Assembly (NCBI GenBank): GCA_934122085.1
Contig: CAKOVS010000003.1
Span: 81,734-145,733 of the forward strand
DNA length: 64,000 nucleotides
Direction of reading: 5' to 3'
DNA from: an uncultured Clostridia bacterium
Lineage (GTDB): Bacteria; Bacillota; Clostridia; TANB77; CAG-508
The notes beneath the pieces were generated by a model. The model was not told the origin of the DNA, did no database searches, and worked only from the letters and a program-made list of their open reading frames with translations. This document shows, one piece after another, positions 1,891 through 3,483 of this stretch. The position numbers and the translations under genes were made by a program. Positions within the stretch are counted from its first letter, which is position 1, and the number at the start of each line of letters is the position of its first letter.

Positions 1891-3483
1891 TTACTTCTTT
1901 ATCATATCCATATAATTTATTGGTTGAGCCAAAACTTGAACACCATCAACTGTTTTTCCCGTCTCAAATATACATTTCCAATAATTATAATTAGATTTTC
2001 CTGAAAATATTGTACTAGCCAATTCTCTATTCTTCCATAAAGGCAACTGAATAAAATTTTTTATAAATATTCTAATATTCTCCCATAATTGCTCTTCAAA
2101 AAGTTGTTGAAATAAGTTTTCCTCATTAAAACTTTTTCCAGCATTAATAAAAAATGCTTTTATAACTTTCTCTACATATTTTAACCAATTTGCCAAAATT
2201 TCTTCTTTACTAACTCTATATGCAACCAAATGATCATCTGTAATATCTTTATCTCTGCCATTTATTAATCTTTGCTCTATTCTATTTACACCTACATTTA
2301 CGTCAAACTTCTTTTCATATATTTCTGCCGCTAATATATCACATAATTTTATTAATTGGTTGCGCTCCAAAATTCTAGGATTTAATCCTTCATCTTCTTT
2401 ATAATTAATATTCGTTGATAATATTGTTTTTGAATTAATAAATAATGCTAAAAATGTTTTTTCAAATGTACTATATGATATTGGAAGTTCTTTTCCTCTA
2501 CCATCAAAATCAATATAATCTGTAAGTTTAGAATTATGAGTAACTTGATTTTTTATACTATTTATTATGTATTGTCTTATATTTCCACGTTCGCCTTTAA
2601 AATGTTCAACAACATCTTTTTCCGAAAAATTGAAATCATCTGACTTTAATCCATGATCACTTTGATATTGTTCAAGCTTTTCCATATATAATGTATTATG
2701 TAATTGTCTAACTATTGATTTGTCAAATGCAATTTGTTTTAATTTGCTTCCAGCATTTGTATTAGTTTCTATTAATCTATCAACATCTGGATCAATAAAA
2801 ACTCTAACTATTAACCTCTTTGCTCCTAATAACAATTGAGCAACTGCTTTATGTTGTCCATCAAAAATTTTTATTCTTCCTTCATCAATTCTAGCTAGAC
2901 TTATATGTAGTTGTGGATTTCCCTTATAAAATTCTTTTACTAATAGCTTAAAACTACTATTTATTCCCCTTGGATTAATTAATTCATCATGAAAGACATA
3001 TTCTATTGGAACTTCTATAAATGAAGATTTTTCTCCAGATAGTCTGTCCTCAAAAACCGTAGTCTTATAAATATTATTGTCTCCTATGTTTGAAAATGAA
3101 TATTCCATAATATTGTTATTTATTTTATATTTAAAATCATATTTACTTCCACCATAATATTGTAATACATGTTTTAATGATGTTGTCTCTCCTTTTGGAG
3201 TTTGTTCTTTTATAACATTTAACCTGCTTAATGTTCTAGCTATTCTTAAGTCTGCGTCTTGCTTGGATTTGTTACAACTTTCGTGCGTTAATCCAAAATT
3301 GTTTTCTTCGTCTTTACCATTATTAACTAATGGTATAATATGATCTATATTAGTTATATTTAAATCTAAGTCCATATCTTTCCTACAAATATAACATTTT
3401 CCTTTTTGCTGATTAAATAATTTTTGAGTTAATTTATCATATTCCTCTTTAGTTAATGAATCTAAGTATTTTGAATTTGACAT
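1891..3483 (-). CDS. HNH endonuclease fused to a DGQHR (DndB/ParB-like, DUF262-related) domain. The architecture is a domain-permuted GmrSD-like nuclease
   Basis: N-terminus carries CYICRK...DHIIPLVNNG...HESCNKSK (HNH His-Me finger). The mid-region carries IFDGQHKAVAQLLLG, a DGQHR/DGQQR-type motif. 530 aa. Confidence 0.6.
   Translation of the reverse strand: MSNSKYLDSLTKEEYDKLTQKLFNQQKGKCYICRKDMDLDLNITNIDHIIPLVNNGKDEENNFGLTHESCNKSKQDADLRIARTLSRLNVIKEQTPKGETTSLKHVLQYYGGSKYDFKYKINNNIMEYSFSNIGDNNIYKTTVFEDRLSGEKSSFIEVPIEYVFHDELINPRGINSSFKLLVKEFYKGNPQLHISLARIDEGRIKIFDGQHKAVAQLLLGAKRLIVRVFIDPDVDRLIETNTNAGSKLKQIAFDKSIVRQLHNTLYMEKLEQYQSDHGLKSDDFNFSEKDVVEHFKGERGNIRQYIINSIKNQVTHNSKLTDYIDFDGRGKELPISYSTFEKTFLALFINSKTILSTNINYKEDEGLNPRILERNQLIKLCDILAAEIYEKKFDVNVGVNRIEQRLINGRDKDITDDHLVAYRVSKEEILANWLKYVEKVIKAFFINAGKSFNEENLFQQLFEEQLWENIRIFIKNFIQLPLWKNRELASTIFSGKSNYNYWKCIFETGKTVDGVQVLAQPINYMDMIKK

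What the first reader, a model, noticed from the sequence alone, without database searches (positions are those of the whole stretch)
1891..3483. Stand-alone, domain-permuted GmrSD-like nuclease (N-terminal HNH plus C-terminal DGQHR/DndB-like domain) in a small island: candidate single-gene defense system
The 530-aa protein has a clear HNH His-Me finger at its N-terminus (CxxC...DHIIP...N...HxxCN) followed by an FDGQHKAVAQ motif. That motif is of the DGQHR/DGQQR type found in DndB and in the DUF262 (ParB-like NTPase) domain of GmrSD, SspE and BrxU type IV restriction enzymes. Known GmrSD-family proteins have the order DUF262 then DUF1524 (HNH-like). Here the order is inverted and the C-terminal region is long and unassigned. 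The gene sits next to a tRNA fragment scar, a sodC pseudogene and a compositionally foreign ORF, so it is in accessory context. No dnd or ssp modification genes are in the window, so it would be acting without a cognate phosphorothioation system.
Basis: partly seen in the sequence, partly recalled or inferred. Interest (0 to 1): 0.75.

Follow-up and report, generated by a model that had tools for sequence, protein, structure and literature searches.

The report
HNH–ParB-fold nuclease in defence hotspot
This is an intact gene for an uncharacterised 530-residue protein that joins a DNA-cutting HNH domain to a ParB-type nucleotide-switch domain; it sits in a chromosomal slot where related gut bacteria carry other anti-phage systems, so it is a good but unproven candidate for a new single-gene defence nuclease.

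Summary

The protein is not a sequence-level member of DUF262/GmrSD_N or DndB. Pfam, NCBIfam and PADLOC HMMs and a profile-profile comparison with a real GmrSD alignment all fail. Its nuclease is PF01844-type, not DUF1524.

The family is compact and always ~530 aa. It is ~55-65% identical across at least 15 phyla, including CPR bacteria and Nanoarchaeia. It was not found in the phage, plasmid and viral-contig collections searched.

Context strongly supports defence. In conspecific gut strains (near Clostridium sp. CAG:269) the same slot holds a DUF262-HNH gene plus BREX, an NgoFVII-type R-M, or a type I R-M. In 17 of 82 loci elsewhere the gene lies within a few kb of type I R-M genes, often packed directly against hsdR or hsdM.

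The best reading is an NTP-gated HNH restriction-like nuclease that works like GmrSD/BrxU/SspE but was assembled from different family members. It is a new variant of a known kind. The tRNA scar was not found.

The parts
1891..3483 (-). Complete gene for the 530-aa HNH-ParB-fold protein (stop codon at 1891-1893)
   Evidence: ORF listing. An identical protein is found on 35 contigs. 1,688 homologues.
3256..3396 (-). HNH (His-Me finger) nuclease domain, residues 30-76. Zn ligands C30/C33/H67/C70; catalytic D47-H48, N62, N71
3034..3186 (-). Linker with a small beta-rich subdomain, residues ~100-150, function unassigned
   Evidence: AF2 secondary structure: H103-109, E118-122, E125-130, E135-142, pLDDT 85-95. 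No family or fold match.
2728..3030 (-). ParB/sulfiredoxin-fold domain, residues ~152-252, predicted NTP-binding switch. Contains NPR (170-172), DGQHK (208-212) and LxxxN (237-241)
2848..2862 (-). DGQHK motif (residues 208-212), sited at the strand-to-helix turn; by recalled ParB/Srx/DUF262/DndB motifs this matches box II GxxR, GCHR, DGQQR and DGQHR
   Evidence: Present in all 82 family loci. Strand E203-208 followed by helix H210-218 in the model. The best hhalign local match to GmrSD's DGQQR falls in register here but is not significant.
1894..2721 (-). C-terminal all-helical domain, residues 255-530, unassigned. Proposed DNA-binding or target-sensing module by analogy with the 'ParBDB' domain
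1803..1855 (.). AU-rich hairpin between the convergent sodC remnant and the focal gene; probable shared terminator
   Evidence: MFE -22.7 kcal/mol, z = -5.2 against shuffles. It lies inside the block (1711-6058) that is shared with sibling contigs.
3513..3632 (.). Border of the strain-variable defence slot, where conspecific strains carrying other cargo stop matching the window
   Evidence: blastn of L087, L089, L090, L092 and L096 against the window ends at 3533, 3626, 3632, 3513 and 3626 respectively.
3725..4135 (+). Conserved 136-aa gene flanking the hotspot, GC ~41%, unknown function. It is not part of the cargo
   Evidence: Present next to every cargo variant. Promoter-like site at 3641-3669 (11 of 12 matches) and terminator at 4144-4183. 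No RNA family match.
1335..1791 (+). Frameshifted sodC pseudogene, island cargo convergent with the focal gene
   Evidence: ORFs 1335-1541 and 1450-1791. Sod_Cu PF00080 E=9e-18. Its last ~80 bp travel with the focal gene in L001-L006.

Best explanation
The gene encodes a stand-alone, horizontally mobile defence nuclease carried as cargo in a chromosomal defence hotspot.

Shown:
- An intact HNH catalytic domain at the N-terminus.
- A middle domain with the ParB/sulfiredoxin fold, whose most conserved residues fall on three motifs (NPR, DGQHK, LxxxN). From established knowledge of ParB box I-III, sulfiredoxin GCHR and DUF262 DGQQR, these are the positions that bind nucleotide phosphates.
- A long, conserved helical C-terminal domain.
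- Placement in a slot that holds other restriction or BREX systems in sister strains.
- Frequent operon-like packing against type I R-M genes in other phyla.

Inferred mechanism:
- The ParB-fold domain binds an NTP and acts as a switch, probably through NTP-dependent self-association or release as in ParB, BrxU and SspE.
- The helical domain binds DNA and reads a feature of invading DNA, most likely a base or backbone modification or another non-self mark.
- The switch then licenses the HNH domain to nick or cut that DNA.

This is the logic of type IV restriction enzymes such as GmrSD, BrxU and SspE. Because most loci, including this window, have no methyltransferase next to the gene, the enzyme must spare host DNA by what it recognises or by being held off, not by a cognate methylation.
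For: - **Conservation.** It is concentrated on HNH residues and on NPR/DGQHK/LxxxN down to 20% identity.
- **Defence hotspot.** The conspecific backbone (Tex through Maf, NUDIX, metallophosphoesterase and the 136-aa gene) is followed by DUF262-HNH plus BREX (six loci shown), NgoFVII REase plus C5 methylase plus MazG plus SLFN-type helicase (two), a type I R-M (one), or small unknown genes plus HsdR (one). The break in similarity lies 30-150 bp upstream of the focal start codon. Siblings carrying the focal gene also carry TnpV, a relaxase fragment, an N6 methylase, Mrr and an integrase.
- **Other loci.** HsdM-type genes occur in 17 of 82 loci and HsdR in 13 of 82, often 3-25 bp away on the same strand. 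PADLOC finds REase_I in 8 upstream neighbours and MTase_I in 7-8 downstream neighbours. Two DUF262 nucleases are also nearby.
- **Shared signature with GmrSD.** GmrSD/DUF262 proteins have the same type I R-M-dominated neighbourhood ('RloF'; PMC4619093).
- **Mobility.** The family is spread over at least 15 phyla at 50-81% identity. Only the ORF itself is conserved between species (L007 matches 1898-3485 only).
- **Not found on phages or plasmids.** No full-length relative in 50,697 phage records, 72,556 plasmids or 2.9 M viral contigs, where only one HNH-only hit appeared; the viral-contig scan was pattern-seeded.
Against: - There is no experimental evidence for any member, and no hit to any PADLOC model beyond the HNH.
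- NTP binding is inferred from fold and motif only. The box II arginine is a lysine, and sequence profiles do not connect the domain to any characterised ParB/Srx family.
- About 80% of loci, including this window, have no adjacent R-M genes, and many neighbours are ordinary housekeeping genes, so guilt by association is partial outside the hotspot.
- The AF2 inter-domain arrangement is uncertain (pTM 0.57).
- The C-terminal domain has no detectable relative, so DNA sensing is a guess.
- A few divergent members have degenerate HNH residues (P0139, P0145), and 2 of 82 loci carry split genes (L029, L050).
Confidence: 0.6

Rival explanations
1. It is a true evolutionary member of the GmrSD/DUF262 or DndB (DGQHR) clade whose domains were circularly permuted (DUF262-helical-HNH becoming HNH-DUF262-helical), and it is specifically a modification-dependent enzyme for glucosyl-hmC or phosphorothioate DNA.
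For: - DGQHK resembles DGQHR/DGQQR, and counterparts of the QR pair (P171-R172) and FxxxN (L237...N241) sit in the same order.
- The best hhalign local match of the domain to a real GmrSD alignment is FDGQHK against LDGQQR, in register.
- The composition of nuclease, ParB fold and helical domain is the same.
- A DUF262-HNH(PF01844) gene occupies the identical slot in sister strains, and its HNH aligns to this one (E=9e-6).
Against: - No HMM hit to PF03235, PF14072 or TIGR03187 in 25 members at E<=10.
- hmmsearch of the domain profile does not recover DUF262 proteins (best E=6.9).
- hhalign probability is ~1%.
- The DUF262 motif QRxxxW is absent.
- The nearest structures are canonical ParB, PadC, KorB and Srx rather than BrxU or SspE, which are not among the listed hits.
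- The HNH is PF01844-type, not DUF1524.
- No dnd or ssp genes were seen in the window or among the neighbour families listed.
Confidence: 0.12
2. It is a back-up or abortive-infection 'guard' tied to type I restriction-modification, analogous to PrrC or RloC. On this reading it is kept silent by, or monitors, the R-M complex or cellular NTP pools, and it unleashes the HNH on host and phage DNA when a phage disables restriction.
For: - Tight co-directional packing inside type I R-M operons (HsdM-HsdS-HsdR-X, HsdR-X-HsdM, X-HsdM) with gaps of -25 to +3 bp in about a fifth of loci.
- An NTP-binding fold could sense nucleotide depletion.
- ParB+HNH proteins have been proposed as back-up effectors of BREX (PMC12839542).
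Against: - Most loci, including the window, have no type I R-M next to the gene.
- None was seen among the window ORFs scanned against PADLOC.
- The protein is very uniform whether or not R-M genes are adjacent, which argues for an autonomous activity.
Confidence: 0.13
3. It is a selfish or mobility-related endonuclease, either homing-type or an island or cassette insertion or maintenance factor using a ParB-like DNA-handling domain. On this reading it spreads for its own sake rather than defending the host.
For: - Extreme horizontal spread with ~60% identity across bacterial phyla, CPR and Nanoarchaeia.
- Only the ORF is shared between species.
- Integrases occur in 9 of 82 loci, and TnpV, a relaxase fragment and an integrase are in the sibling island.
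- HNH domains are common in homing endonucleases.
Against: - No full-length relative was found in the phage, plasmid and viral-contig collections searched.
- There is no intron or intein context, no flanking repeats or att-like sequences, and no conserved target gene.
- It shares its slot with bona fide defence systems.
- A canonical GmrSD subfamily shows the same high conservation, so that feature is not diagnostic.
Confidence: 0.07
4. It is an RNA-guided nuclease of the TIGR-TasH type, or another repeat-array-guided system. TasH has an N-terminal HNH, and TIGR systems occur in CPR bacteria.
For: - N-terminal HNH followed by a helical C-terminal region.
- The family is present in CPR and Nanoarchaeia.
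- TasH is described with an N-terminal HNH, and TasA loci carry a ParB-like partner (PMC12045711).
Against: - No tandem or interspaced arrays in window 1-6500, within 3 kb of the gene in 81 loci, or in five CPR and Nanoarchaeia loci.
Confidence: 0.02

Closest known systems
GmrSD / BrxU / SspE type IV restriction enzymes (DUF262 ParB-like NTPase + helical DNA-binding domain + DUF1524 HNH-like nuclease)
   Same: - A single polypeptide combining a ParB/Srx-fold nucleotide-binding domain, a helical domain and a His-Me-finger nuclease.
- No obligatory cognate methylase.
- A neighbourhood dominated by type I R-M genes (against PMC4619093).
- The same chromosomal slot as a DUF262-HNH gene that precedes BREX in sister strains.
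- Broad HGT with ~60-75% identity within a subfamily.
   Different: - The domain order is inverted, with the nuclease first.
- The nuclease is classical HNH PF01844 with a CxxC...HxxC zinc site, not DUF1524.
- The ParB-fold domain is not recognisable as DUF262 by HMM or profile-profile methods. It lacks QRxxxW and has DGQHK instead of DGQQR.
- Structurally it is nearest to canonical ParB, PadC and Srx.
- The C-terminal domain has no detectable similarity to anything solved.
DndB / DGQHR-domain proteins (PF14072, TIGR03187)
   Same: - A ParB/Srx-superfamily domain with a near-identical signature (DGQHR against DGQHK).
- An upstream (Q/P)R pair and a downstream hydrophobic-xxx-N motif in the same order.
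- The domain is followed by a helical domain.
   Different: - No HMM match.
- No association with dndACDE or ssp genes.
- DndB has no nuclease domain and is described as an NTP-binding regulator.
Canonical ParB-CTPase-fold proteins (ParB, Noc, KorB, PadC) and the ParB-HNH fusions listed in the 2025 PNAS survey (PMC12704722)
   Same: - Best structural matches.
- By recalled ParB consensus, motif order NPR ... GxxK ... ExN resembles ParB box I (QPR), box II (GERRxR) and box III (ENxxR).
- That survey reports ParB-CTPase fusions to HNH PF01844 in bacteria as uncharacterised novelties.
   Different: - No HTH or centromere-binding domain and no parA partner.
- No full-length relative found on plasmids.
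- Pfam ParBc does not detect the domain, so it was probably not captured if that survey relied on Pfam-type detection (an assumption).
- The arginine-rich box II is replaced by QHK.
R-linked ORFs in type I R-M loci (Rlo genes such as RloF=DUF262, RloC and PrrC)
   Same: It is inserted between or directly after hsd genes in the same orientation, with very short gaps, in about 21% of loci.
   Different: - This is a positional class only.
- Most copies, including this one, are not R-M-linked.
- There is no anticodon-nuclease or ABC-ATPase domain.

Membership tests
HNH endonuclease (Pfam PF01844, His-Me finger) | Profile match above the curated threshold | tested here: met
   PF01844 E=4.3e-7, 30.4 bits against a 21.4-bit cut-off, residues 30-76. 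23 of 25 divergent members match at the E<=10 scan threshold, best E=1.3e-11.
HNH endonuclease (Pfam PF01844, His-Me finger) | Catalytic D-H ... N ... N/H triad and Cys/His zinc ligands | tested here: met
ParB/sulfiredoxin superfamily (fold level) | ParB/Srx alpha/beta fold | tested here: met
ParB/sulfiredoxin superfamily (fold level) | Phosphate-binding G-x-x-(R/K) box at the strand-to-helix turn | tested here: met
   G209-Q-H-K212 lies between strand 203-208 and helix 210-218. Q210 and H211 invariant; D208, G209 and K212 conserved in >=90%. It is a variant, with K in place of R.
ParB/sulfiredoxin superfamily (fold level) | NTP binding or hydrolysis | not testable with these tools
   This needs biochemistry such as DRaCALA, ITC or NTPase assays.
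DUF262 / GmrSD_N (Pfam PF03235) | Profile match to PF03235 | tested here: not met
   No hit at E<=1 (window protein) or E<=10 (25 members). The reverse profile does not find true DUF262 proteins (best E=6.9).
DUF262 / GmrSD_N (Pfam PF03235) | Profile-profile similarity to a bona fide GmrSD alignment | tested here: not met
   hhalign A2 against A6 gives probability 1.4%, HNH motif only. A5 against A6 gives probability 0.9%, E=0.058, although the local match is DGQHK/DGQQR in register.
DUF262 / GmrSD_N (Pfam PF03235) | Signature motifs QRxxxW and DGQQR | tested here: not met
   The family has INPRGI with no W, and DGQHK. The motifs are as defined in PMC12065111 and PMC4619093.
GmrSD-type type IV restriction enzyme | Architecture DUF262 (N-terminal) followed by DUF1524/GmrSD_C (C-terminal) | tested here: not met
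   The order is HNH, then ParB fold, then helical domain. PF07510 appears in only 1 of 25 members, at E=0.1.
GmrSD-type type IV restriction enzyme | Modification-dependent DNA cleavage modulated by NTP | not testable with these tools
   This needs phage panels with modified DNA and in-vitro cleavage assays.
DndB / DGQHR domain (PF14072, TIGR03187) | Profile match | tested here: not met
   No Pfam hit and no NCBIfam hit.
DndB / DGQHR domain (PF14072, TIGR03187) | QR pair, DGQHR and FxxxN motifs | tested here: inconclusive
   Near-equivalents PR (171-172), DGQHK (208-212) and LxxxN (237-241) occur in the same order (definition). Each deviates from the consensus, and no alignment to DndB could be made because no DndB sequence was available.
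DndB / DGQHR domain (PF14072, TIGR03187) | Linkage to dndACDE or ssp modification genes | tested here: not met
   No Dnd or Ssp families appear among the families listed for the 248 neighbours (top 25 per scan) or for the 44 window ORFs.
TIGR-TasH RNA-guided nuclease | Nop domain and an adjacent TIGR repeat array | tested here: not met
   No Nop hit. No arrays.
Known defence systems in PADLOC-DB v2.0.0 | Full-length match to any model | tested here: not met
   Only the HNH segment matches Cas9 and PtuB models, at E>=7.5e-6.
Defence-island cargo (operational class) | Occupies a strain-variable locus that holds known defence systems in conspecifics | tested here: met
   L087-L096 carry BREX plus DUF262-HNH, an NgoFVII R-M, or a type I R-M at the same slot. 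The border was mapped at 3513-3632.

The most novel reading that the evidence does not exclude
This family would be an independently assembled, pan-prokaryotic, single-protein immune nuclease. A canonical ParB-CTPase-type nucleotide switch, rather than DUF262, gates an N-terminal HNH, and a previously unseen helical domain reads a near-universal feature of invading DNA. That would be convergent re-invention of the GmrSD/BrxU/SspE logic. It would explain the family's unusual uniformity (~60% identity from Clostridia to CPR bacteria and Nanoarchaeia). It could also yield a new modification- or structure-dependent restriction activity, and a second worked example of how ParB-fold NTP switching is coupled to catalysis.
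Probability: 0.3. Interest if true: 0.7.

Novelty: new variant of a known kind. Interest (0 to 1): 0.55.

Why it matters
If confirmed, the family adds a widespread defence gene that current finders miss. It is present in at least 154 species-level genomes across at least 15 phyla, including host-dependent CPR bacteria and Nanoarchaeia. PADLOC v2 models see only the HNH segment, and Pfam covers only ~50 of its 530 residues.

It would show that the combination of a ParB-fold NTP switch with an HNH nuclease arose more than once and in either domain order. It would give a compact, highly conserved model for how ParB-type nucleotide binding licenses a nuclease. It might also provide a new modification-dependent enzyme for epigenomic tools.

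The mapped hotspot in a prevalent human-gut Clostridia lineage, next to the metallophosphoesterase and 136-aa gene, is itself a useful natural 'defence slot' for finding further systems.

Tried and rejected
- **Sequence-level links of residues 80-530 to known families.** All negative: Pfam, NCBIfam, PADLOC and PHROGs on the window protein; Pfam on 25 divergent members at E<=10; PDB sequence searches with the protein, the full profile and a domain-only profile; local hmmsearch with filters off against all locus ORFs; hhalign against single DUF262 neighbours and against a 24-sequence GmrSD alignment.
- **AFDB50 fold search.** The library was unavailable. A DndB comparator alignment could not be built because no DndB sequence was accessible.
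- **GC-rich 'ORF' as a structured RNA or integration target.** Rejected: no Rfam hit, and clear promoter, RBS and terminator signals.
- **tRNA fragment scar.** Not found.
- **att-type direct repeats bounding the island in L003, L004 and L006.** Only chance-level 10-17 nt matches.
- **TasH/TIGR hypothesis, raised by a literature hit.** Rejected: no Nop domain and no arrays.
- **Phage or plasmid carriage.** None found.
- **Conserved partner gene.** Clustering 1,130 neighbour ORFs found none beyond type I R-M subunits, which occur in a minority of loci.
- **Literature searches for DGQHK, HNH-ParB and ParB-HNH.** No paper describes this architecture.
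Full report
**1. Observation**

The window contains a single uninterrupted ORF at 1891..3483 on the minus strand (ATG start, 530 aa). Local GC is ~25%.
- C30-x2-C33, D47-H48-IIP, N62 and H67-x2-C70-N71.
- F207-DGQHK-AVAQ216.

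Pfam HNH (PF01844) matches residues 30-76 above its curated threshold. The gene is real. An identical protein occurs on 35 metagenomic contigs, and 1,688 homologues were scored at E<=1e-3, the best 120 full-length at 59-100% identity.

The context remarks check out as follows:
- The sodC remnant is confirmed. Two overlapping frames, 1335-1541 and 1450-1791, carry the halves of Sod_Cu.
- The GC-rich ORF is confirmed as to composition (3725-4135, ~41% GC).
- The 'tRNA fragment scar' is not reproduced, by ARAGORN or by an Rfam scan at E<=1.

**2. Anatomy of the protein**

An AlphaFold2 model built on 27 homologues has mean pLDDT 85 and pTM 0.57. The domains are therefore well defined but their mutual arrangement is not. 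The model has four parts:
- **Small beta-rich linker, residues ~100-150.** No match.

I built an alignment reaching down to 20% identity from the exhaustive 1.84-billion-protein search.
- Invariant residues: C30 and N62 (HNH); P159, P171-R172, Q210-H211, N241, A244 and Q250 (ParB-fold domain); E288 and R370 (helical domain).
- Conserved in >=90% of members: D47, H48, H165, D166, N170, F207, D208, G209 and K212.

Read against the predicted secondary structure, NPR(170-172), strand-DGQHK-helix(203-218) and L237xxxN241 fall where canonical ParB has box I (QPR), box II (GxxR) and box III (ENxxR). That placement is inference from established ParB and Srx knowledge. They also fall where the DGQHR and DUF262 domains have their QR, DGQ(H/Q)R and FxxxN motifs, as defined in PMC4619093.

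**3. Is it a GmrSD, DUF262 or DndB family member?**

At sequence level it is not.
- No Pfam, NCBIfam or PADLOC model of DUF262, GmrSD_N, DndB, the DGQHR domain or ParBc matches the window protein at E<=1.
- None matches any of 25 divergent members at E<=10.
- A profile of the ParB-like region, run with filters off, does not recover the genuine DUF262 proteins present in the fetched loci (best E=6.9).
- The same profile finds no solved ParB/Srx protein by sequence.

I then built a real GmrSD alignment (PF03235+PF07510) from a neighbour gene in L075.
- hhalign of the family against it gives 1.4% probability and aligns only the HNH 'DH' motif.
- The domain-only profile gives 0.9% probability. Its best local match is KIFDGQHKAVAQ against IVLDGQQRLTSL, in register.

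The domain therefore belongs to the ParB/Srx superfamily and carries a DGQH-type box. A specific relationship to DUF262 or DndB, and hence a literal domain permutation of GmrSD, is not demonstrated.

**4. The family**

At 50% clustering there are only 427 representatives at E<=1e-3, many of them fragments. Every full-length one (488-560 aa) has the same layout.

In species-representative genomes, 154 stretches encode a relative. The 80 loci kept span Bacillota, Bacteroidota, Spirochaetota, Pseudomonadota, Campylobacterota, Desulfobacterota, Planctomycetota, Atribacterota, Synergistota, Cloacimonadota, Ignavibacteriota, Melainabacteria, several CPR phyla and Nanoarchaeia, at 50-81% identity.

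Between species only the ORF itself is conserved: L007 matches window 1898-3485 only. No full-length relative was found in 50,697 phage records or 72,556 plasmids. A pattern-seeded scan of 2.9 million viral contigs gave one HNH-only hit.

A canonical GmrSD subfamily shows comparably high conservation (60-76% among its top hits). Uniformity is therefore compatible with a horizontally spread restriction enzyme.

**5. Genomic context**

*(a) The window's own locus.*

The flanking core genes identify a prevalent human-gut lineage near Clostridium sp. CAG:269. Looking up the neighbouring metallophosphoesterase returned conspecific contigs with the same backbone: Tex, response regulator, P-type ATPase, Maf, NUDIX, metallophosphoesterase and the 136-aa gene. 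Different cargo follows at exactly the position of the focal gene:
- A 425-aa DUF262(GmrSD_N)+HNH protein followed by BrxA, BrxB, BrxC and PglX (six loci shown).
- An NgoFVII-type REase, a C5 methylase, a MazG-like protein and an SLFN-type helicase (two loci).
- A type I R-M system (one locus).
- Small unknown genes plus HsdR (one locus).

Similarity between those strains and the window ends at 3513-3632, which is 30-150 bp upstream of the focal ATG.

Contigs that do carry the identical focal gene are collinear with the window only over 1711-6058. They continue with TnpV, a relaxase fragment, an 846-aa N6 methylase, an Mrr-type nuclease and a tyrosine integrase. Window 1-179 resembles the region next to that integrase (88% identity).

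The gene is thus one alternative cargo of a chromosomal defence hotspot. The GC-rich 136-aa gene is conserved flank, with its own promoter-like site and terminator.

*(b) Other genomes.*

I clustered 1,130 neighbour ORFs from 82 loci.
- The only recurrent neighbours are type I R-M subunits: an HsdM/HsdS cluster in 17 loci and HsdR in 13.
- These often lie on the same strand with gaps of -25 to +3 bp, in arrangements such as HsdM-HsdS-HsdR-X, HsdR-X-HsdM and X-HsdM.
- Integrases follow (9 loci), then Fic proteins (5 loci).

Bulk scans of the two neighbours on each side confirm this.
- Upstream: HSDR_N and T1R_D3-like 8 each, ResIII 9, Methylase_S 3.
- Downstream: N6_Mtase+HsdM_N 7, integrase 4, YhcG 2, RhuM 1.
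- PADLOC: REase_I 8, MTase_I 7-8, type IIG, PDC-S01.

Two DUF262 nucleases also lie nearby, in L033 and L075. The remaining neighbours are heterogeneous, including housekeeping genes.

This is the signature reported for GmrSD/DUF262 ('RloF'; PMC4619093). From general knowledge, type I R-M genes make up well under 1% of genes, so adjacency in ~21% of loci is a large enrichment. That figure is an estimate; I did not compute a background.

**6. Mechanism**

Shown:
- An intact HNH active site.
- A ParB/Srx fold whose conserved residues are those that bind nucleotide phosphates in characterised relatives.
- Single-gene mobility.
- Defence-hotspot and R-M-linked context.
- No obligatory methylase partner.

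Inferred: the ParB-fold domain binds an NTP and switches the protein's state, the helical domain binds DNA and recognises a non-self feature, and the HNH then nicks or cuts. This is the logic of GmrSD, BrxU and SspE. Supporting literature:
- SspE's GTP hydrolysis acts as an allosteric switch (PMC13251355, abstract seen).
- ParB-DUF262 plus ParBDB acts as a DNA sensor (PMC12065111).
- ParB-HNH proteins are the second most common BREX accessory effector (PMC12839542).

I rate the general claim of a defence nuclease with an NTP-gated HNH at about 0.6. The specific target is unknown.

Rivals considered:
- A true permuted GmrSD/DndB member (0.12).
- A PrrC-like guard of type I R-M (0.13).
- A selfish or mobility nuclease (0.07).
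- A TasH/TIGR-type RNA-guided nuclease (0.02). This is excluded by the absence of a Nop domain and of any repeat array.

**7. Novelty**

No paper in the library describes this architecture or the DGQHK motif. A 2025 survey mentions ParB-CTPase-HNH(PF01844) fusions only as uncharacterised novelties (PMC12704722). PADLOC v2.0.0 has no model for it.

The building blocks and the logic are well known, so I class it as a new variant of a known kind. Interest is moderate, at 0.55. It is a well-supported and unusually widespread candidate, but it is one among many predicted single-gene systems and has no experimental data.

**8. Caveats**

- The fold assignment rests on a predicted structure.
- The AFDB library was unavailable, and no DndB alignment could be made. 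The question of which ParB/Srx clade is nearest is answered only against solved structures and one GmrSD subfamily.
- The genome-contig and viral-contig scans were seeded by conserved peptide patterns, so counts are lower bounds and very divergent members may be missed.
- The bulk Pfam and PADLOC scans list only the 25 most frequent or best families, so absence of Dnd/Ssp there excludes strong or recurrent hits only.

Noticed in passing
window 6059-64000: Beyond the maf gene the window stops matching every conspecific contig, which continue with His_Phos_1, a ~600-aa gene, a P-type ATPase and Tex. The window instead carries DUF6017-like, Fic/PDC-S04 (10446-11129) and replication-like ORFs, two tRNAs (Pro at 17765, Arg at 50670), a UvrD/PcrA-like helicase (18141-20510) and a 2,463-aa ORF (51608-58999). 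This looks like a large insertion or rearrangement, possibly an integrative element.
   Followed up: partly
window 3725-4135 (+): A 136-aa gene with ~41% GC in a ~25% GC genome is conserved at the border of the defence hotspot in all strains whatever the cargo. It has its own strong promoter-like site (3641-3669) and a bidirectional terminator (4144-4183). It has no credible family hit and is not an RNA. Its role (regulator, anchor of the hotspot, highly expressed small protein) is unknown.
   Followed up: partly
L089:9210-10487 (+), and the same position in L091 and L093-L096: In sister strains the slot of the focal gene is filled by a 425-aa DUF262(GmrSD_N)+HNH(PF01844) protein directly upstream of a type 1 BREX operon. 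This is a BrxU-like accessory with the opposite domain order. Its HNH aligns to the focal HNH (32% identity over 50 aa, E=9e-6).
   Followed up: partly
window 405-1061 (-): A 218-aa ORF in the island, on the same strand as the focal gene, has no hit in Pfam (apart from one weak Epsilon_antitox match at E=0.048), NCBIfam, PADLOC or PHROGs. It is unknown cargo, absent from the sibling islands L001-L006.
   Followed up: no
window 1335-1791 (+) and L001-L006 11594-11773: The frameshifted sodC remnant is itself island cargo. Only its last ~80 bp plus the hairpin at 1803-1855 are shared with sibling islands, where TnpV follows instead. This suggests a recombination breakpoint at ~1711, inside sodC.
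   Followed up: partly
P0139, P0145 (alignment A2); L029 and L050; P0394, P0398, P0399: A few divergent family members have lost the HNH D-H residues while keeping DGQHK. Two of 82 genome loci carry the gene split into two ORFs. The 90%-identity cluster of the window protein includes 133-147-aa truncated forms on several contigs. This indicates occasional inactivation, as expected for a costly nuclease.
   Followed up: no
BFVD entry A0A5J6TQ41 (rank 34): An unnamed 549-aa viral protein gives the highest global TM-score to the model (0.33/0.32 over 454 columns, probability 0.93). It could be a full-length structural analogue in a virus.
   Followed up: no
L010:8472-9989 and L055:8470-9987 (CPR loci): In two CPR (Saccharibacteria-type) genomes the gene follows the same conserved block of six genes, including a 505-aa protein directly upstream (gap ~12 bp). 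A relative of that protein lies downstream in L031. It was not annotated individually and may be a further R-M-type partner.
   Followed up: no
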